A stretch of DNA of 34,089 nucleotides, from contig CAZZIA010000001.1 of assembly GCA_964654075.1 (NCBI GenBank), forward strand, positions 1-34,089. Direction: 5' to 3'. The stretch's first letter is position 1, and each line of letters opens with the position of its first letter. Source of the stretch: an uncultured archaeon. GTDB lineage: Archaea > Aenigmatarchaeota > Aenigmatarchaeia > Aenigmatarchaeales > Aenigmatarchaeaceae. Shown one piece after another: positions 1,274-27,246 of this stretch. The position numbers and the translations under genes were made by a program. The notes under the pieces were generated by a model. It was given only the letters and a program-made list of their open reading frames with translations, did not search any database and was not told the DNA's origin.

Positions 1274-2260
1274 ATGCAGTCAAAATTTGATATAAAGCAT
1301 AATAAAGCAATTGTAAAGCCTGAAAATACAGATGACCTTTTTATACTTTCTCAGATAATTCAGCCTGGAGCTTTTGTTAGGGCCAGGACCATACGTTCTG
1401 TGGAAATAAAAAGAGATAAGGAAAGGATAAAAGTTGGTAAAAGGCCTGTTACATTAAAAATTCAGATTGAAAAAATTGAACTTAACCAAAGGCTAAGACT
1501 TGGCGGAAAAATTGTTGAAGGTCCAGAAGATATTGAAAAGGGCTGGCATAGCATTTTAGTTGAGCCTATGCAACAGCTAACAATTGAAAAGGAATGGAAA
1601 GGCTGGGAAATTGAAAGAATAAAAAAAGCTCAAAAAAAGGCAGAGCCTGTTCTAGTTTGCATTTTAGATGAAAGGGAGGCTGATTTTTATTTAATTGAAC
1701 AAAGGGCACAGCACATTTTACACATAAGTTGCGGCAGCTTAGGAAAAGAAGCAGGAATTTCCAGAAAGCCTGAATATTATGGAAATATACTAGCTGAGCT
1801 AAAAAGAAGGGAAGAAAGGCATATTATACTAGCTGGCCCAGGATTCGCCAGAGAAGAGCTACATAAGCAAATTCCAGAAAAAGAAAGAGTAATAGCAGAA
1901 AGTTGCTCCCACGCTGGAGAAAGGGGATTGCAGGAAATTTTAAAAAGAAAAGTATTGGACCGCCTTGTCAAAGTATCAAGGATAGTCGAAGAAACAAAAG
2001 CAGTTGAAATGCTGCTAGAAGAAATTGCAAAAGAAGGAAAAGCTGTTTATGGGCTAGAACAAACTAAAGCAGCAATAGAATCTGGAGCTGTTGAACTTTT
2101 GCTTATATCTGATAAAAAAGTTAGAGAGCTTGAAAATCTATTAGAACTAGCAGAAAAGATGAAAGGCAAAATAATGATCGTTTCTTCTGAACATGAAGCT
2201 GGTGAGAAGCTGTTTGGCCTTGGTGGAATAGCTGCGCTGCTTAGGTATAAAATCTACTAA
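1274..2260 (+). CDS. pelA: Pelota (Dom34) mRNA surveillance / ribosome rescue factor
   Basis: 328 aa. The N-terminus (K..NKAIVKPENTDDLFILSQIIQPGAFVRARTIR) and the eRF1-like central and C-terminal domains (ILAGPGF..., YGLEQTKAAIESGAVELLLISD) are typical of archaeal Pelota. Confidence 0.9.
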   Translation: MQSKFDIKHNKAIVKPENTDDLFILSQIIQPGAFVRARTIRSVEIKRDKERIKVGKRPVTLKIQIEKIELNQRLRLGGKIVEGPEDIEKGWHSILVEPMQQLTIEKEWKGWEIERIKKAQKKAEPVLVCILDEREADFYLIEQRAQHILHISCGSLGKEAGISRKPEYYGNILAELKRREERHIILAGPGFAREELHKQIPEKERVIAESCSHAGERGLQEILKRKVLDRLVKVSRIVEETKAVEMLLEEIAKEGKAVYGLEQTKAAIESGAVELLLISDKKVRELENLLELAEKMKGKIMIVSSEHEAGEKLFGLGGIAALLRYKIY

Positions 2261-2277
2261 TACTTATATTGTGAGAA

Positions 2278-2472
2278 TTGCAAACTAATTGTATGGATAT
2301 TAAACTATATCTTGGGATTTTTCTGGCAGTGGTAATCGCAGATATCATATCAACTCTTCTAGCAATACCTATGTTCTTTGGCTTTCCATTTGAAAGATCT
2401 ATTGTATCTGCAATTATAGTGATAATATTTTACTTCCTGCTAGCAAGATTCTTGATCAAAGGCCCGGCCTAG
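2278..2472 (+). CDS. small two-TM membrane protein (hypothetical)
   Basis: 64-aa ORF, almost entirely hydrophobic. Its 3' end overlaps the convergent methyltransferase gene by 17 nt. Confidence 0.3.
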   Translation: MQTNCMDIKLYLGIFLAVVIADIISTLLAIPMFFGFPFERSIVSAIIVIIFYFLLARFLIKGPA

Positions 2473-7319: not shown

Positions 7320-7547
7320 ATGTTAAAAGAAAAATATCTATTTTTATCATTTGACATTCCTAGAGAAAAGGCTAGTTTCAGAGTCAAAATTTGGAGAAGG
7401 TTAAAGGAGATTGAAGCAAGGCAAAAACTTGGTTCTTATTGGATGCTTTCTTACTCAAAACAAAATCTAAACAATTTAAAAAAGATTGTTAAACAGATTA
7501 AAAAATCCAAAGGACGGGCTGAAATAATTGTTGGAAGATTGATTTAG
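7320..7547 (+). CDS. small ChrB-N-terminal/Cas2-like alpha/beta protein (hypothetical)
   Basis: 75 aa. YLFLSFDIPREKASFRVKIWRRLKEIEARQKLGSYWMLSY....GRAEIIVG follows the pattern of ChrB N-terminal-type domains (L-x-Y-x-hP-x-x-x-S-x-x-RV-x-hWR-x-L-x-x-x-GA-x-x-L-x-x-S-VW-x-LP ... G-G-x-A). Its stop overlaps the GTG start of the next gene (taGTG). Confidence 0.5.
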   Translation: MLKEKYLFLSFDIPREKASFRVKIWRRLKEIEARQKLGSYWMLSYSKQNLNNLKKIVKQIKKSKGRAEIIVGRLI

Positions 7548-8365
7548 TGAATAGTGCAAAATTTGATTTATCTAAAATTAAATTTAGTTGGACTGATAAA
7601 AGAAAGAAAATAAAATTGCCGGAAATGTTAACAGAAGAATTGGCAGAAGATATTGGAATTCATATTGGAGATGGGAGTATGTATCTAACAGGTCCAAACT
7701 TAAAAAGCTATGAAATGAGATATTCGGGTGATTCCACAGAAGATAAAGAACATTATATTAATCGAATAATACCATTAAAAGAAAGATTATTTAATAAACA
7801 AATAAATGGAAAGATATTAAATTTTAGAGGAAATGAATATGGATTTGTCATTTGCTCAAAAGCAATTTTTTATTTTTATACAAAAATTATACATATCCCT
7901 TCAGGCACCAAAACAAAAATAGCAGAAGTACCTAAAATGATAATGAAATCTAACAAATCTATTCAAGCTGCATTTATAAGAGGATTGTCTGATACAGACT
8001 TTTCATTAACGTTTAAAAGAAAAAGCACTAAACATAATTTAAATTATTATCCTATGATTACAGCAAATTTTGCAAGTAGAAAATTAGTTGATAATCTTCA
8101 AAAAATTTTAAAGGGTTTAAGTTTTAATGTTGTAATTCTAGATGGAATTAATAAGAGGTATAACAAACATTATCCAACTCATATAATTAACATAAATGGA
8201 AAAAGGAACTTAGAACTTTGGATGAAAATTATAGGTTTTAATAATCCAAAACACTTAACAAAATATTTGGTGTGGAAAAAATTTGGTTTTTGCCCACCAA
8301 GATTATCTCTGAAACAAAGAAAACAAATACTAACAGGAAATTTGGATCCATATAATTTTTATTAA
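7547..8365 (+). CDS. free-standing double-motif LAGLIDADG homing endonuclease-like protein (copy 1)
   Basis: 272 aa. Motif 1 is LAEDIGIHIGDGSMY and motif 2 is AFIRGLSDTDFSL, both retaining the acidic residue. It is a paralog of the 24.0-24.8 kb ORF. The stop lies 1 nt from the 3' end of the convergent tRNA-Ile. Confidence 0.8.
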   Translation: MNSAKFDLSKIKFSWTDKRKKIKLPEMLTEELAEDIGIHIGDGSMYLTGPNLKSYEMRYSGDSTEDKEHYINRIIPLKERLFNKQINGKILNFRGNEYGFVICSKAIFYFYTKIIHIPSGTKTKIAEVPKMIMKSNKSIQAAFIRGLSDTDFSLTFKRKSTKHNLNYYPMITANFASRKLVDNLQKILKGLSFNVVILDGINKRYNKHYPTHIININGKRNLELWMKIIGFNNPKHLTKYLVWKKFGFCPPRLSLKQRKQILTGNLDPYNFY

Positions 8366-8366
8366 A

Positions 8367-8516
8367 TGGTGGGCGAGGTGAGATTTGAACTCACGACATC
8401 TGGGAGTTTTAACTCTCACCAGTTTTTACGCCAGGTTGCCTTATAAGACTGGCGCTCCTTCAGGAACGTATTAACCTGGCTGAGCATCGGGAACACAAAC
8501 ATGTGTTTACCCGCCC
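8367..8516 (-). tRNA. tRNA-Ile(UAU), 4 introns (22 nt at 9/10, coordinates 8486-8507; 14 nt in the D-loop, 8459-8472; 17 nt at 38/39, 8424-8440; 19 nt at 45/46, 8398-8416), CCA encoded
   Basis: Exons: GGGCGGGTA | GCTCAGCCAGGTT | GGAGCGCCAGTCTTATAA | ACTGGTG | GTCGTGAGTTCAAATCTCACCTCGCCCACCA. These give a 78-nt class I cloverleaf with loop CTTATAA and variable loop TGGTC. Each intron has a 4-bp central helix flanked by 3-nt bulges: CGGG/CCCG, CAGG/CCTG, TTAT/GTAA and CTGG/CCAG. Confidence 0.75.
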
Positions 8517-23617: not shown

Positions 23618-23857
23618 ATGAAACAAGTTAATGAGAAAAAGGTACAAAAGATTTTGAAAGTATTAGCAAGGTCTAAACAAAAATTATGGATTAGAGAAAT
23701 CGCCAGAAGAACAAAATTAAGTCCAGGGATTGTAAGTCATTACATTAATACAGCTTTAAGAGATAAAGTAAAAATATCACATGGTAAATTTGCCTTTCAA
23801 GATATAACTTTTGTAGAGTTGAAAGAGGGACGAAAAAATGAGATATTTAAAATTTAA
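23618..23857 (+). CDS. small winged-helix transcriptional regulator
   Basis: The ORF is about 79 aa from ATG 23618; the GTG at 23606 used by the track lies inside the palindrome. KILKVLARSKQKLWIREIARRTKLSPGIVSHYINTAL is a typical HTH (ArsR/TrmB-like). Confidence 0.6.
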   Translation: MKQVNEKKVQKILKVLARSKQKLWIREIARRTKLSPGIVSHYINTALRDKVKISHGKFAFQDITFVELKEGRKNEIFKI

Positions 23858-23883
23858 ATACATATTAAAGAAAATAAACTCAT

Positions 23884-24018
23884 GCCCGAGTAGCTCAGAG
23901 GAAGAGCGACTGGCTGTTAGCAAAATGGCTGGAACCAGTAGGTCACTTATGGATAAGTTAAGTGCTTTCCATAGATCAAAGGTTCGAAATGTGGACGGAG
24001 ATCCTGTCTCGGGCGCCA
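23884..24018 (+). tRNA. tRNA-Asn(GUU), 3 introns (14 nt at 37/38, coordinates 23920-23933; 33 nt at 50/51, 23947-23979; 13 nt at 59/60, 23989-24001), CCA encoded
   Basis: GCCCGAG TA GCTC-AGAGGAA-GAGC G ACTGG CTGTTA|..|A CCAGT AGGTC AC|..|AGG TTCGAA|..|T CCTGT CTCGGGC G CCA. The G73 discriminator is present. The BHB central helices GGTC/GATC and TTCG/CGGA restore a perfect ACAGG/CCTGT T-stem and a TTCGAAT loop. The spliced length is 75 nt. Confidence 0.85.
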
Positions 24019-24806
24019 TTTTAAATCTTTCTGCTATTAAATTTAGCAGAAATGATTTAAGAAGAAAAATTGTTCTACCAAAATTTATTTCAGAAGATCT
24101 TGCAGAAAACGTAGGTGTTCTTATTGGAGATGGCTCAATTTATATTTCCAATCACGATTACAATATTGTATATAGTGGAAATTTAGTGGAAGATAGATAC
24201 TATTTTGAAAACTATTTAGTTCCATTAAATAAGAGACTTTTCAATATTTTATTTAAAAACATTATTTACCATAATGAGTTTAGGCTTTATATACGATCTA
24301 AAGCCCTTTTAACTTTTTATAGTAAGGCTATAGGACTTCCATTAGGCTTAAAAAGTAATATCACTATCCCAAGAAAAATTTTGAGGTCTAAAAGTTTAAT
24401 TACTCATTGTATAAGAGGGATAATGGATACTGATTTTTCCTTATCATTTAAATCTAGGAAAAAATATCACTCATACCCTGTTATTTCTGCTTATTTTAAA
24501 AGTAAAGCACTTGTAAAACAATTAGAAAATTTATTAAAAAAATTAAACTTTAAAGTTGTATTAAATTACGATTATGAAAGAATTGACAAAAGAATTAAAA
24601 ATGGTAAATTTATATCTCAAGCAATTTATTTGAACGGAAAACAAAACTTAGAATTATGGTGGAATTTAATAGAAAGTCGTAATCCGAGACTTGTTACAAG
24701 ATACTTAATTTGGAAAAAATTTGGCTTTTGCCCTCCCTATACAAATATGCAACAAAGAATAAATATACTAAAAGGTAAGATCAACCCTAAAGAATTTTAT
24801 AAATAA
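23991..24806 (+). CDS. free-standing double-motif LAGLIDADG homing endonuclease-like protein (copy 2); start uncertain and located inside the tRNA-Asn gene
   Basis: Similarity to copy 1 begins at ..LNLSAIKFS (24022 onward). Motifs are LAENVGVLIGDGSIY and HCIRGIMDTDFSL, with a shared C-terminus NP..T.YL.WKKFGFCPP. No ATG/GTG/TTG occurs in frame between the tRNA end and motif 1. The in-frame candidates are GTG 23991, ATG 23949 and ATG 23925, all within tRNA introns. The track ORF extends back to 23838. Confidence 0.75.
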   Translation: MDGDPVSGAILNLSAIKFSRNDLRRKIVLPKFISEDLAENVGVLIGDGSIYISNHDYNIVYSGNLVEDRYYFENYLVPLNKRLFNILFKNIIYHNEFRLYIRSKALLTFYSKAIGLPLGLKSNITIPRKILRSKSLITHCIRGIMDTDFSLSFKSRKKYHSYPVISAYFKSKALVKQLENLLKKLNFKVVLNYDYERIDKRIKNGKFISQAIYLNGKQNLELWWNLIESRNPRLVTRYLIWKKFGFCPPYTNMQQRINILKGKINPKEFYK

Positions 24807-24809
24807 GCA

Positions 24810-24835
24810 TTGAGTCCGACTCCGGGCGCCATTTT
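24810..24835 (+). repeat. orphan tRNA 3'-end fragment / direct repeat of the tRNA-Asn 3' end
   Basis: TTGAGT CCGAC TCCGGGC G CCA TTTT reads as a degenerate T-loop, T-stem 3' strand, acceptor 3' strand, G73 and CCA. CGGGCGCCATTTT (24823-24835) is identical to 24010-24022. Confidence 0.6.
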
Positions 24836-25995: not shown

Positions 25996-26118
25996 GGGGT
26001 AGTAGCTCAGACTGGGAGAGCGCACGAGGATGCTATCCTGCGAAGCTGAAGACCGTGAATGGGATGCTTGGCATCTCATCGGGAAATGTCGTGAGTTCAA
26101 ATCTCACCTACCCCACCA
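25996..26118 (+). tRNA. tRNA-Phe(GAA), 2 introns (18 nt at 30/31, coordinates 26027-26044; 28 nt at 43/44, coordinates 26058-26085), CCA encoded
   Basis: GGGGTAG TA GCTC-AGACTGGGA-GAGC G CACG|..|G CTGAAGA CCGTG |..| ATGTC GTGAG TTCAAAT CTCAC CTACCCC A CCA. Intron 1 has a textbook BHB: CGCA/TGCG central helix, CG|A and AA|G bulges, and a GGAT/ATCC inner helix. Intron 2 has a 9-bp inner helix plus ACCG/CGGG. The spliced length is 77 nt. Confidence 0.85.
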
Positions 26119-26122
26119 AAGG

Positions 26123-26128
26123 TTTTTT
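26123..26128 (+). terminator. oligo-T run downstream of tRNA-Phe
   Basis: A TTTTTT run begins 5 nt after the CCA end, matching the archaeal oligo-T terminator pattern. Confidence 0.45.
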
Positions 26129-26151
26129 AATCTTAAAAAGTAATTCTAATT

Positions 26152-26706
26152 ATGTTCGTTCGTATTGTCCCGGCAGGAAATATAGCTCCAAAAATTCTAG
26201 AGTTGGTATGTGCTGGACTTGAAGAAGTGCTAAACTCGAGATGTAGAATACTTCAAAAAGTACAAATACCAAAAGAAGCGTGGGATCACTGGAGAAGGCA
26301 ATATGATGCTGAAAAAATACTAGAGAGCCTCGTAGACACTGGTGCTGCAAAGTTCATAGACAAATCAATACCAACAATAGGCATAACAGATGAAGATATA
26401 TATTATAAGGGATTAAACTTTGTATTTGGGCTTGAAGAACCAGCTACAGGTTGTTGCATAGTATCGATTGCTAGACTAAAGCAGGAATTTTATGGCCAAA
26501 GTTCAAATATGGGGCTTTTAGTTGATAGGACTGTTAAAGAAGTTATACATCAAATTGGCCACCTTTTTGACTTAAGTCACTGCCAATACCCAACATGTGT
26601 GATGTGCTTTTCACCATCAGTAAACGACGTTGACAATAAGCAAAAGTATTTTTGTGACAACTGTAAAATTAAAATAGCGAGAAAAGGTATCAGGATGTCT
26701 GATTAA
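26152..26706 (+). CDS. amzA: archaemetzincin (peptidase M54)
   Basis: 184 aa. HQIGHLFDLSHC (HExxHxxGxxH-type with Q in place of E, plus Cys), followed by C..CVMCF and CDNC zinc-binding cysteines. Confidence 0.85.
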   Translation: MFVRIVPAGNIAPKILELVCAGLEEVLNSRCRILQKVQIPKEAWDHWRRQYDAEKILESLVDTGAAKFIDKSIPTIGITDEDIYYKGLNFVFGLEEPATGCCIVSIARLKQEFYGQSSNMGLLVDRTVKEVIHQIGHLFDLSHCQYPTCVMCFSPSVNDVDNKQKYFCDNCKIKIARKGIRMSD

Positions 26707-27246
26707 ATGACTGAAGGTAAACTTGTAGAAGATAAAGTAATTATCTGGGATATAGAAGGTGGGAAAGAAATTTATGAAACTGCATATTATGGCAAACTAA
26801 AGGAAGATAGGCTAGAGCTGGCATTGATAGAGGCATGCTTGCTTTTAGAAAGGCAGAAAATTGACATATTGGACGAAGATGGCAAAAAAATGAAATTTGA
26901 TAAATTTTTTCATTATTGCTGCAAAATTGATAAAAGATTTGTATCTAGATATGTTGTGTATAAAGATTTAAGGGAAAGAGGATTACCAGTAAGGACTGGA
27001 TTTAAATTTGGATGTGATTTTAGAGTTTATGAAAGAGGTGTAAAGCCGATAAAGAGGGGGCCAAAAGCACCTGGCGAGCACACAAAATGGATTGTATTTG
27101 CTGTTTCAGAAGATTATACGTGCTCATTTCATGAACTTTCAAGGGCTGTAAGACTTGCCCACAATATCAGAGCAAACATGCTATGGGCGATTGTTGATGC
27201 GGATTTAGATGTTACATATTATACAGTAACATTTACCAGACCTTAG
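26707..27246 (+). CDS. endA: tRNA-splicing endonuclease EndA (179 aa, alpha4-sized), atypical active site
   Basis: YVVYKDLRERGLPVRTGFKFGCDFRVYERG...GEHTKWIV...AVRLAHNIRANMLWAIVDADLDVTYYTVTF aligns along its length with the M. jannaschii EndA sequence as I recall it. Tyr and His of the triad are present. The Lys position reads Ala. Confidence 0.9.
   Translation: MTEGKLVEDKVIIWDIEGGKEIYETAYYGKLKEDRLELALIEACLLLERQKIDILDEDGKKMKFDKFFHYCCKIDKRFVSRYVVYKDLRERGLPVRTGFKFGCDFRVYERGVKPIKRGPKAPGEHTKWIVFAVSEDYTCSFHELSRAVRLAHNIRANMLWAIVDADLDVTYYTVTFTRP

What the first reader, a model, noticed from the sequence alone, without database searches (positions are those of the whole stretch)
23884..24018. tRNA-Asn with three introns, including one inside the T-stem (50/51) and one in the T-loop (59/60)
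Removing 23920-23933, 23947-23979 and 23989-24001 gives a 75-nt tRNA with loop CTGTTAA, a G73 discriminator, a perfect ACAGG/CCTGT T-stem and a TTCGAAT loop. The 50/51 intron has a clean BHB: GGTC/GATC helix, AC|T and AA|A bulges, and a TATGGA/TCCATA inner helix. The canonical 37/38 intron has only a relaxed helix (CTGT/GCTG, 3 of 4 pairs). The same DNA is also open in the reading frame of the downstream LAGLIDADG gene.
Basis: seen in the sequence. Interest (0 to 1): 0.6.

Follow-up and report, generated by a model that had tools for sequence, protein, structure and literature searches.

The report
Three-intron tRNA-Asn beside homing endonuclease
This is a genuine asparagine tRNA gene of a tiny DPANN archaeon, broken by three small enzyme-spliced introns, one of them inside the T-stem, with a selfish LAGLIDADG endonuclease gene fused to its end; the gene type is known, but the pairing hints at how such introns spread.

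Summary
Removing 23920-23933, 23947-23979 and 23989-24001 gives a 75-nt tRNA-Asn(GUU). It is 68/75 identical to an intronless ortholog in a same-family genome, and four of the seven differences form two compensatory acceptor-stem pairs that span exon 1 and exon 4. ARAGORN calls the spliced sequence tRNA-Asn. Rfam scores the precursor at 33.5 bits.

All three junctions fit archaeal bulge-helix-bulge geometry:
- 50/51 has a 4-bp central helix plus a 6-bp inner helix.
- 59/60 is a bulge-helix-loop (TTCG/CGGA).
- 37/38 is relaxed (3 of 4 pairs).

The 50/51 intron recurs in tRNA-Asn of three families of this class. One relative carries 30/31+50/51+59/60. The genome encodes EndA, with the DPANN "L3" loop, and RtcB.

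Three-intron tRNAs are already known from Thermoproteales, so the gene is a new member or variant of a known kind.

The downstream LAGLIDADG gene adds interest. Homologs lie beside or inside tRNA genes across DPANN. One sits inside the 30/31 intron of a relative's tRNA-Asn, and one lies directly downstream of another 50/51-intron tRNA-Asn. The window's copy has no start codon after the tRNA and is followed by a relic tRNA-Asn 3' fragment. No RNA data could be obtained.

The parts
23853..23860 (+). TTTAAATA, a TATA-like box about 27 nt upstream of tRNA position 1 (putative archaeal promoter of the pre-tRNA)
   Evidence: Read directly from the sequence. The spacing is typical of archaeal promoters. 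This is an inference and was not tested.
23884..23919 (+). Exon 1, tRNA positions 1-37: acceptor 5' strand, D arm, anticodon stem 5' strand, and loop CTGTTA with anticodon GTT
   Evidence: Identical to the G002 ortholog except for 3 nt.
23920..23933 (+). Intron 1, 14 nt, at the canonical position 37/38 (36/37 would give the same product). Relaxed BHB: CTGT/GCTG with 3 of 4 pairs; bulges TA|G and GA|A.
   Evidence: Relatives carry 13-42-nt introns at the same site with 4/4 pairs.
23934..23946 (+). Exon 2, positions 38-50: A38, anticodon stem 3' strand, variable loop AGGTC, and T-stem A49 and C50
23947..23979 (+). Intron 2, 33 nt, at 50/51 inside the 5' strand of the T-stem. BHB of HBh' type: central helix GGTC/GATC, bulges AC|T and AA|A, and inner hairpin TATGGA...TCCATA.
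   Evidence: The same site is occupied in tRNA-Asn of G171/G136 and G040, where different intron sequences keep the pairing to GGTC (GACT, GGCC).
23980..23988 (+). Exon 3, positions 51-59: T-stem A51, G52 and G53, and T-loop TTCGAA
23989..24001 (+). Intron 3, 13 nt, at 59/60 in the T-loop (58/59 would give the same product). Bulge-helix-loop: TTCG/CGGA with 4 pairs; bulges AA|A and GA|T; the outer helix is the T-stem.
   Evidence: G040 (13 nt) and G039 (54 nt) carry an intron at the same site in tRNA-Asn. Position 59/60 is a published non-canonical position (PMC4090602).
24002..24018 (+). Exon 4, positions 60-76: T60, T-stem 3' strand CCTGT, acceptor 3' strand CTCGGGC, G73, and an encoded CCA
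   Evidence: It changes in a compensatory way with exon 1 relative to G002 and G040.
24018..24806 (+). Conserved body of a two-motif LAGLIDADG endonuclease gene. The frame is open from 23823. The only in-frame ATG/GTG/TTG codons upstream of the first motif are 23838, 23925, 23949 and 23991, all upstream of or inside the tRNA gene.
   Evidence: The N-termini of the paralog (7547-8365) and of the G171 homolog align to about 24010-24020.
24810..24835 (+). Relic 3' fragment of a second tRNA-Asn allele (TTGAGT CCGAC TCCGGGC G CCA TTTT). Its last 13 nt (24823-24835) repeat 24010-24022 exactly.
   Evidence: It resembles the 3' end of the G040a tRNA-Asn, TTCGAGTCCAGCTCCGGGCGCCA.
26707..27246 (+). tRNA-splicing endonuclease EndA, 179 aa. 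It is the only PF01974 gene in the assembly and carries the Lys-rich insert VKPIKRGPKAP between the catalytic Tyr and His.

Best explanation
Positions 23884-24018 hold the only detectable tRNA-Asn(GUU) gene of a roughly 0.7-Mb DPANN archaeon. Its class contains genomes deposited as Aenigmatarchaeota.

The gene is interrupted by three protein-spliced (BHB-type) introns:
- 37/38, 14 nt;
- 50/51, 33 nt, inside the 5' strand of the T-stem;
- 59/60, 13 nt, in the T-loop.

How the introns are recognised (shown by the sequence):
- Variable-loop nucleotides G45-C48 pair with the 3' end of intron 2. Together with the intron's own 6-bp hairpin, this presents both 50/51 splice sites in 3-nt bulges.
- T-loop nucleotides 54-57 pair with intron 3.
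- Loop nucleotides 32-35 pair loosely with intron 1.

How splicing proceeds (inferred):
- The genome's single EndA, which carries the DPANN-type Lys-rich loop, cuts after the second nucleotide of each bulge, and RtcB joins the exons.
- Removing intron 2 restores the full T-stem, which then serves as the outer helix for intron 3.

The LAGLIDADG gene (inferred link):
- A LAGLIDADG homing-endonuclease gene is fused directly to the tRNA's 3' end. It belongs to a DPANN-wide family that sits inside or against tRNA genes.
- The T-arm introns probably persist, or arrived, in connection with such endonucleases. They may be decayed mobile introns, or they may shield the target site.
For: Gene and intron boundaries:
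- Rfam tRNA gives 33.5 bits on the precursor.
- ARAGORN calls the spliced 75-mer tRNA-Asn(gtt).
- The spliced product has perfect stems, G18 G19, a TTCGAAT loop, G73 and an encoded CCA.
- It is 68/75 identical to the intronless G002 ortholog, and the differences include two compensatory acceptor pairs that link exon 1 and exon 4.
- BHB geometry holds at all three sites and at all ten ortholog introns tested, each with 4/4 central pairs.
- The 50/51 intron recurs in tRNA-Asn of three families. Its Hb sequences differ (GATC, GGCC, GACT) but all pair with GGTC.
- G040 has a three-intron tRNA-Asn (30/31, 50/51, 59/60) and G039 has a 59/60 intron.
- No other GTT anticodon arm with tRNA context exists in the assembly.

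Splicing machinery:
- EndA is present and its sequence is conserved across the order.
- RtcB is present at 563 bits.
- DPANN alpha-type EndAs with the L3 loop are reported to go with heavily disrupted tRNA sets (PMC5829648).

Endonuclease link:
- Homologs occur in 86 of 201 genomes of the class.
- A tRNA or 23S rRNA adjoins most homolog loci, including 17 of 20 loci from other DPANN groups.
- G171 has a 50%-identical homolog about 95 nt downstream of its 50/51-intron tRNA-Asn. Its congener G136 keeps only a C-terminal remnant there.
- G015 carries a homolog inside the 30/31 intron of tRNA-Asn. G005 and G040 have short 30/31 introns that retain its first bases.
Against: - No RNA evidence exists.
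- Intron 1 has a U.U mismatch in the central helix. Intron 2 has no outer helix. Intron 3 has no inner helix. All three need a broad-specificity enzyme.
- This EndA has Ala where the canonical catalytic Lys sits (RAN instead of RKK). That is conserved across the order, so it is presumably compensated, but this is unproven.
- Junctions 37/38 and 59/60 could each lie one nucleotide upstream without changing the product.
- The assembly is 91.6% complete, so a second tRNA-Asn cannot be excluded.
- The endonuclease-intron link is only correlative. G040's three-intron gene has no endonuclease next to it.
Confidence: 0.88

Rival explanations
1. A different parse, the one Rfam's alignment suggests. 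The middle insertion lies in the variable region (about 45-48), the T-stem is AAAGG/CCUGU with one A.G mismatch, and no intron lies inside the T-stem.
For: The cmscan alignment places a 34-nt insertion before 'AuCAAAGG' and marks one non-canonical T-stem pair.
Against: - The cut sites of that parse would fall inside the GGTC/GATC helix, not in bulges.
- Orthologs have AGGTC-[A/G]C-AGG with C50 paired to G64. Three other genomes have an intron exactly between C50 and A51.
- The 50/51 parse gives a perfect T-stem.
Confidence: 0.03
2. A decaying, unspliced tRNA pseudogene that has been wrecked by insertions next to a mobile element. The functional tRNA-Asn would lie in the missing 8% of the genome.
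For: - The gene sits next to a selfish endonuclease gene and a relic tRNA fragment.
- The assembly is incomplete.
- Two of the three splice motifs are relaxed.
Against: - Every stem is perfect after splicing, and acceptor changes against orthologs are compensatory.
- The insertions sit exactly where BHB geometry predicts cuts, and where relatives have introns.
- No other GTT anticodon arm is found.
- A TATA-like box lies at -27.
- Most tRNAs of this genome are similarly disrupted: only 12 reach the Rfam cut-off.
Confidence: 0.04
3. Dual use of the DNA. The stretch is also translated as the N-terminal extension of the LAGLIDADG protein. Translation would start at ATG 23838 (GAGGG lies 9-13 nt upstream) or at the in-frame ATG/GTG codons that lie in each intron (23925, 23949, 23991). 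Endonuclease synthesis would then depend on unprocessed or unspliced pre-tRNA.
For: - No ATG/GTG/TTG lies in frame between the tRNA end and the first LAGLIDADG motif.
- The 262-codon body has no stop in a 27-31% GC region.
- The frame is open through the tRNA in only 1.1% of shuffles.
- In G103, a homolog's stop-to-stop frame also runs through the whole upstream tRNA-Phe.
Against: - The 60 codons over the tRNA have no counterpart in the paralog or in homologs, whose N-termini map to the tRNA's 3' end.
- RNase P, RNase Z and EndA processing would sever such an mRNA.
- The G103 copy has a TTG just after the tRNA.
- The gene may simply have lost its start recently.
Confidence: 0.12
4. A fourth, 813-nt 'intron' at 76/77. 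The two copies of GGGCGCCATTT would pair as a symmetric BHB (GCGC/GCGC, bulges CA|T). EndA would release 24019-24831 as an RNA circle, and in that circle TTG 24810 opens a complete endonuclease ORF (MSPTPGAILNLS...).
For: - The geometry fits, with 4 G-C pairs.
- 813 = 3 x 271.
- TTG 24810 lies two codons after the stop and is in frame across the junction. The resulting N-terminus is within 3 residues of the paralog's length.
Against: - Both flanking helices consist of only two G.U pairs.
- The helix competes with the acceptor stem.
- The repeat is more simply two tRNA-Asn 3' ends, each with an oligo-T tail. CCATTT follows several tRNAs in this genome, and the relic resembles the G040a allele.
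- G103, which has a similar tRNA-endonuclease fusion, has no such repeat.
Confidence: 0.05

Closest known systems
Three-intron pre-tRNAs of Thermoproteales, e.g. Pyrobaculum islandicum tRNA-Pro(UGG) with introns at 25/26, 37/38 and 56/57, and P. calidifontis tRNA-Glu(UUC)
   Same: - One canonical plus two non-canonical BHB/HBh'/BHL introns in one tRNA gene.
- Three introns is the published maximum.
- Spliced by EndA and RtcB (PMC4090602; PMC4033280; PMC4390854).
   Different: - The host is a DPANN archaeon with a single alpha-type EndA carrying the L3 loop, not a crenarchaeal (alpha-beta)2 enzyme with the CSL loop.
- Two introns lie in the T arm, one of them inside the T-stem at 50/51. That position is not in the list of positions in the review I could read. 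I could not search for '50/51' because the slash is not searchable.
Disrupted tRNA sets of DPANN archaea with L3-loop EndA (Kaneta et al. 2018, PMC5829648) and ARMAN-2 pre-tRNAs with T-loop introns
   Same: - An alpha-type EndA with the insert between the catalytic Tyr and His, shared with the Nanoarchaeum equitans alpha subunit.
- Many multi-intron tRNAs that standard finders miss.
- The paper explicitly predicts unidentified disrupted tRNAs in DPANN.
   Different: - This specific gene and lineage are not described there.
- The EndA here and throughout its order lacks the canonical catalytic Lys (RAN for RKK).
LAGLIDADG-encoding BHB introns of archaeal rRNA genes (I-DmoI, I-PorI, I-ApeI; cited from my own knowledge)
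   Same: - A LAGLIDADG endonuclease is associated with BHB-spliced introns.
- Members of the same protein family here also lie in 23S rRNA.
- One member lies inside a tRNA-Asn intron, in G015.
   Different: - In the window the endonuclease gene is outside the introns and fused to the tRNA's 3' end.
- The host gene is a tRNA. The reviews I read give tRNA intron lengths of 11-129 nt and mention no ORFs. I found no paper on endonuclease-bearing archaeal tRNA introns.
Collaborative homing of a free-standing endonuclease and an ORF-less intron (F-CphI beside the psbA group I intron of cyanophage S-PM2; cited from my own knowledge)
   Same: - A free-standing endonuclease gene lies next to a gene whose ORF-less intron could disrupt the enzyme's target.
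- Presence, decay and absence of the endonuclease gene all occur among relatives.
   Different: - The introns here are protein-spliced BHB introns, not group I ribozymes.
- No cleavage site is known.
- The link is only correlative: 3 of 4 lineages with the 50/51 intron have the endonuclease gene or its remnant next to the tRNA.

Membership tests
Archaeal tRNA gene with multiple BHB-type introns | The exons join to a canonical cloverleaf with conserved tRNA nucleotides and a sensible identity set | tested here: met
   - The 75-nt product has perfect stems, U8, G18 G19, T54 T55 C56, anticodon GTT, G73 and CCA.
- ARAGORN calls it tRNA-Asn.
- It is 68/75 identical to an intronless ortholog.
Archaeal tRNA gene with multiple BHB-type introns | Each exon-intron boundary lies in a bulge-helix-bulge motif or an accepted relaxed form (HBh', hBH, BHL), with cuts 4 bp apart on opposite strands | tested here: met
   
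- 50/51: H 4/4 plus a 6-bp inner helix (HBh').
- 59/60: H 4/4 plus the T-stem as outer helix (BHL).
- 37/38: H 3/4 plus the anticodon stem (relaxed).

The same geometry gives 4/4 pairs in ten ortholog introns.
Archaeal tRNA gene with multiple BHB-type introns | The genome encodes a splicing endonuclease able to cut relaxed motifs, and the RtcB ligase | tested here: inconclusive
   - EndA is present and carries the L3-type insert.
- RtcB is present.
- The canonical catalytic Lys is Ala. This is conserved across the order. Activity was not tested.
Archaeal tRNA gene with multiple BHB-type introns | The mature spliced RNA exists | not testable with these tools
The one metagenome contig found is DNA identical to the window.
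LAGLIDADG homing endonuclease | Two LAGLIDADG motifs with conserved acidic residues in one chain, and a profile match | tested here: inconclusive
   - The motifs VLIGDGSIY and IRGIMDTDFS are present.
- Pfam LAGLIDADG_3 gives only 14.2 bits (cut-off 22.5) for this copy and 16.3 bits for the paralog. It gives 38.6 bits for the homologous G015 intron ORF.
- Homology among these proteins was shown by search (33-50% identity).
LAGLIDADG homing endonuclease | Site-specific DNA cleavage of an allele lacking the element, followed by copying of the element | not testable with these tools
   Only indirect signs exist:
- patchy, multi-copy distribution, with copies broken by stop codons;
- an intact copy against a remnant copy at the same site in two congeners.
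Collaborative homing (free-standing endonuclease gene plus ORF-less intron) | The endonuclease gene is adjacent to the intron-bearing target gene, and intronless alleles lack it | tested here: met
   - The window and G171 have both the endonuclease gene and the intron; G136 has a remnant.
- Intronless tRNA-Asn genes of G002, G014 and G019 have no adjacent homolog.
- Exception: G040's three-intron gene has none.
Collaborative homing (free-standing endonuclease gene plus ORF-less intron) | The enzyme cuts the intronless allele at or near the intron insertion site, and the intron protects against cutting | not testable with these tools
   No cleavage data exist. The relic tRNA fragment that begins at T54 is compatible with a break in the T-arm, but it proves nothing.

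The most novel reading that the evidence does not exclude
The T-arm introns and the fused LAGLIDADG gene form one mobile unit.

- The endonuclease targets the T-arm of intronless tRNA-Asn genes.
- The 50/51 and 59/60 introns split that target and so protect the carrier allele.
- The tRNA-intron-endonuclease cassette spreads by gene conversion, leaving the relic 3' fragment at 24810-24835 as the scar.
- Short non-canonical tRNA introns in DPANN would then be gained through homing endonucleases, or would be their decayed footprints. The G015 (ORF inside the 30/31 intron), G005 and G040 (mini-introns keeping the ORF's first bases) series suggests the decay route.

This would give a concrete, testable mechanism for archaeal tRNA intron gain.
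Probability: 0.3. Interest if true: 0.78.

Novelty: new variant of a known kind. Interest (0 to 1): 0.55.

Why it matters
- Multi-intron tRNAs are the reason tRNA sets of DPANN genomes look incomplete. This gene is invisible to ARAGORN and barely passes Rfam, yet it is probably the only tRNA-Asn of the organism.
- An intron inside the T-stem that recurs in three families shows that the splicing endonuclease tolerates substrates in which the T arm cannot form before splicing.
- This happens in a lineage whose EndA lacks the textbook catalytic lysine.
- The tight association of a large LAGLIDADG family with tRNA genes, inside an intron in one relative and fused to the 3' end here, offers an experimentally testable route for how archaeal tRNA introns are gained and lost. 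The literature I could read treats that question as unresolved.

Tried and rejected
- ARAGORN on the window, and with intron mode on the whole genome, misses the gene. Its 'tRNA-Asn' at C4:15803-15926 is a different multi-intron tRNA whose 'gtt' lies in an intron.
- I considered an alternative anticodon reading, CTTGGAA = Pro with a shifted intron. I rejected it because orthologs read CTGTTAA and an intact tRNA-Pro(TGG) exists on C69.
- The Rfam 'evalue' run on homolog loci failed twice, once for too much sequence and once with an internal error. I used the gathering mode instead.
- Synteny with the intronless G002 locus could not define an empty site, because the gene context differs.
- I looked for a relic tRNA fragment or repeat behind the analogous tRNA-Phe-endonuclease fusion in G103. 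There is none.
- I looked for an endonuclease remnant behind G040's three-intron tRNA-Asn. There is none.
- The metagenome scan for other alleles returned only one contig, identical to the window.
- The literature check for a precedent of position 50/51 failed, because '/' cannot be searched and the key MBE/RNA papers are not held.
- I did not attempt a full SPLITS-like census of all tRNAs in the genome. Only Rfam scores were collected.
Full report
**1. The observation**

The window is contig C1:1-34089 of a 676-kb, 112-contig assembly that is 91.6% complete. It has about 33% GC. It carries archaeal genes: Top6A/B, archaemetzincin and tRNA-intron endonuclease. Relatives in the same class are deposited as Candidatus Aenigmatarchaeota or Nanoarchaeota MAGs, so this is a DPANN archaeon.

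ARAGORN finds no tRNA in the window. Rfam's tRNA model matches 23884-24015 at 33.5 bits (cut-off 29), with three large insertions.

Removing 23920-23933, 23947-23979 and 23989-24001 gives a 75-nt sequence that folds into a perfect cloverleaf:
- acceptor GCCCGAG/CTCGGGC;
- D arm GCTC-AGAGGAA-GAGC;
- anticodon arm ACTGG-CTGTTAA-CCAGT;
- variable loop AGGTC;
- T arm ACAGG-TTCGAAT-CCTGT;
- G73 and an encoded CCA.

The cloverleaf energy is -29.2 kcal/mol. ARAGORN calls this spliced sequence tRNA-Asn(gtt).

**2. Is it more than chance?**

Loose BHB-like motifs are frequent. I found 32 in these 135 nt with four central pairs and one 2-bp flank. Splice-motif scoring alone therefore proves little. The comparative evidence is decisive.

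- Genome G002 (same family) has an uninterrupted tRNA-Asn, GCCCAGGTAGCTCAGCGGAAGAGCGACTGGCTGTTAACCAGTAGGTCGCAGGTTCAAATCCTGTCCTGGGCGCCA. The predicted spliced product is 68/75 identical to it.
- Of the seven differences, four form two compensatory acceptor pairs (G5-C68/A6-U67 against A5-U68/G6-C67). These pairs link exon 1 to exon 4.
- The orthologs read AGGTC-[A/G]C-AGG. This settles the middle junction in favour of C50|A51. Rfam's alignment puts the insertion in the variable region and leaves an A.G mismatch in the T-stem.

**3. The splice motifs**

I used the geometry in which each cut follows the second nucleotide of a 3-nt bulge and the two bulges flank a 4-bp helix. I validated it on ten introns of relatives, and all ten gave 4/4 central pairs. 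The three introns score as follows.

| Intron | Central helix | Bulges | Flanking helices | Type |
|---|---|---|---|---|
| 2 (50/51) | GGTC (nt 45-48) / GATC, 4 pairs, 1 G.U | AC\|T, AA\|A | inner TATGGA/TCCATA 6 bp; no outer | HBh' |
| 3 (59/60) | TTCG (nt 54-57) / CGGA, 4 pairs | AA\|A, GA\|T | outer = T-stem, 3 bp in the raw precursor and 5 bp after intron 2 is removed; no inner | bulge-helix-loop |
| 1 (37/38) | CTGT / GCTG, 3 of 4 pairs | TA\|G, GA\|A | outer = anticodon stem | relaxed BHB |

Junctions 37/38 and 59/60 could each be drawn one nucleotide upstream without changing the product. Junction 50/51 is unique.

**4. Relatives**

tRNA-Asn genes in this order and class show a mosaic of introns.

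| Genome(s) | Introns in tRNA-Asn |
|---|---|
| G002, G014/G009, G019, G020, G040 copy a | none |
| G035 (two copies) | 37/38 |
| G003, G005 | 30/31 + 37/38 |
| G039 | an anticodon-region intron + 59/60 |
| G171, G136 (a different family) | 50/51 only |
| G040 copy b | 30/31 + 50/51 + 59/60 |

So the window's gene is not unique in having three introns, and 50/51 is a recurrent site. The three 50/51 introns differ in sequence, but their 3' segments (GATC, GGCC, GACT) all pair with the exon's GGTC.

**5. Is it functional, and what splices it?**

- A regex search for GTT anticodon arms with tRNA context finds only this gene in the assembly.
- A TTTAAATA box lies about 27 nt upstream.
- The genome has one EndA gene (26707-27246), 2.7 kb downstream in the same window, and an RtcB ligase.
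- EndA aligns best to the M. jannaschii alpha4 enzyme and the N. equitans alpha subunit. With the latter it shares a Lys-rich insert between the catalytic Tyr and His, YERGVKPIKRGPKAPGEH.
- That location and distribution match the 'L3' loop that Kaneta et al. associate with broad specificity and heavily disrupted tRNA sets in DPANN (PMC5829648).
- In keeping with that, only 12 tRNA hits in this genome reach the Rfam cut-off and about 30 show up at E<=10. All four tRNAs I saw in the window have introns.
- One caveat: the canonical catalytic Lys (MJ K156, motif RKK) is Ala here (RAN). All nine alpha-like orthologs aligned from the order show the same, so it is a conserved feature and not decay.

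**6. The overlapping ORF and the LAGLIDADG gene**

The frame of ORF 23838-24806 is open from 23823, across the whole tRNA gene. Only 1.1% of shuffles of 23838-24018 keep it open.

The protein has two LAGLIDADG motifs. It is homologous to:
- a paralog in the window (7547-8365; 47% identity, 44%);
- the G171 gene (50%);
- the G015 ORF (33%).

Pfam LAGLIDADG_3 passes its threshold only for the G015 protein.

The N-termini of these homologs align to the tRNA's 3' end (about 24010-24020). The 60 codons over the tRNA are therefore not conserved protein. Yet no ATG, GTG or TTG lies in frame between 24018 and the first motif. The only candidates are 23838, which has GAGGG upstream, and one codon in each intron: 23925, 23949 and 23991. 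I cannot tell whether the gene recently lost its start or is translated from precursor RNA.

**7. The relic fragment**

Three nucleotides after the stop codon comes TTGAGTCCGACTCCGGGCGCCATTTT (24810-24835). Its last 13 nt repeat 24010-24022 exactly. It closely resembles the T-loop-to-CCA end of the G040a-type tRNA-Asn, TTCGAGTCCAGCTCCGGGCGCCA.

I read it as the 3' relic of a second or displaced tRNA-Asn gene. Most members of the endonuclease family abut a tRNA (see section 8). A break in the T arm followed by repair from a tRNA-endonuclease cassette would leave exactly such a scar.

A more exotic reading is a symmetric BHB between the two repeat copies. This would release an 813-nt (3 x 271) RNA circle in which TTG 24810 opens the complete ORF. 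The geometry fits, but the flanks are only G.U pairs and the helix competes with the acceptor stem. I give it about 5%.

**8. The endonuclease family and tRNA genes**

- Homologs occur in 86 of 201 genomes of the class. They are often multi-copy, and some are broken by stop codons.
- Of the first 20 loci, most have a tRNA flush against the gene or lie in 23S rRNA.
- Of 20 loci from Woese-, Pace-, Iainarchaeota and other groups, 17 have a tRNA within about 0-40 nt of the ORF's end. These copies have their own start codon, and the stop codon overlaps the tRNA's 5' end.
- In G171 the closest homolog lies about 95 nt behind a tRNA-Asn with the 50/51 intron. In its congener G136 only the C-terminal remnant FKKFGYCPPRTN is left at the same place.
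- In G015 a homolog lies inside the 30/31 intron of tRNA-Asn. The intron is about 668 nt with a perfect CGAC/GTCG helix, and the ORF's stop codon is formed in the anticodon loop.
- G005's 53-nt and G040's 20-nt introns at the same site keep the ORF's first bases (GGGTGAG..., ATGGGT...). That fits decay of an ORF-bearing intron to a mini-intron.
- G103 has such a gene between tRNA-Phe and archaemetzincin, where the window has none.
- The window's paralog abuts a multi-intron tRNA-Ile(UAU)-like gene (8370-8475, minus strand), as do its orthologs in G008 and G006.

I found no paper that describes LAGLIDADG genes in or beside archaeal tRNA introns. Reviews give tRNA intron lengths of 11-129 nt.

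Other agents of this scan have noted the same association in other genomes. Those are unchecked notes, and I reached the idea before reading them.

**9. Comparison with what is known, and verdict**

Three introns per tRNA is the published maximum, documented in Pyrobaculum and Thermofilum. Position 59/60 is a published site. Multi-intron tRNAs in DPANN with L3-loop EndA are anticipated. The gene is thus a new member of a known kind.

Three features are less ordinary:
- a recurrent intron inside the T-stem (I could not verify whether 50/51 has a precedent);
- an EndA without the textbook lysine;
- a homing-endonuclease gene fused to the tRNA's 3' end, with a frame running through the tRNA.

The only metagenome hit is an identical DNA contig.

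Noticed in passing
window 27160-27180 (EndA motif AHNIRANMLW) and 27025-27060 (loop VKPIKRGPKAP): The only EndA of the genome has Ala where M. jannaschii has the catalytic Lys156 (RKK becomes RAN). The substitution is conserved in all nine alpha-like EndAs aligned from the order. The Lys-rich insert between Tyr and His is shared with the N. equitans alpha subunit. Most genomes of this family have one EndA gene, whereas the other families of the order have a tandem alpha/beta-like pair, and the beta-like copy lacks both the loop and the His.
   Followed up: partly
window 7547-8365 (+) and 8370-8475 (-): A paralogous LAGLIDADG gene (44-47% identity) ends 2-4 nt from the CCA end of a convergent, multi-intron tRNA-Ile(UAU)-like gene. 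That tRNA scores only 18.8 bits with Rfam and is missed at the gathering threshold. Orthologs of this paralog in G008 and G006 also sit next to tRNA-Ile(TAT).
   Followed up: partly
window 24810-24835 and 24010-24022: A relic T-loop-to-CCA fragment of a tRNA-Asn follows the endonuclease stop codon and ends in a perfect 13-nt repeat of the live tRNA's 3' end. The repeat spacing is 813 nt = 271 codons. TTG 24810 would open the full ORF if the segment were circular.
   Followed up: partly
L020 (G015:C16) 1501-2260: A relative's tRNA-Asn carries a 224-aa LAGLIDADG ORF inside a roughly 668-nt intron at 30/31. The ATG lies at the first intron bases, and the stop codon TAA is made of T36, A37 and the first base of the next (37/38) intron. 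G005, G040 and G003 have 53-, 20- and 12-nt introns at the same site, two of which keep the ORF's first bases.
   Followed up: partly
L047 (G103:C121) 1498-2457 (-) versus window 25996-26706: In G103 a homologous endonuclease gene lies between tRNA-Phe and archaemetzincin. The window has the same two genes without it, so this is a filled site against an empty site. The G103 stop-to-stop frame also runs through the whole upstream tRNA-Phe.
   Followed up: partly
genome contig C4:15803-15926 (+): Another heavily disrupted tRNA (acceptor GCCCCGG/CCGGGGC, encoded CCA). It has an insertion in the D-loop and at least one more in the anticodon region. ARAGORN miscalls it tRNA-Asn.
   Followed up: no
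whole genome G000: Only 12 tRNA matches reach the Rfam cut-off in a 92%-complete genome, and about 30 appear at E<=10. Most tRNA genes are therefore probably multi-intron or split. Eleven of 14 inspected tRNAs encode their CCA.
   Followed up: partly
L012/L065 (G040:C17) and L003/L005 (G035:C1): Two tRNA-Asn genes lie 2-4 kb apart in these genomes. One copy in each directly precedes an Asp/Asn-tRNA-synthetase-like ORF (MF[VI]..I[SP]..). In G040 one copy is intronless and the other has three introns.
   Followed up: no
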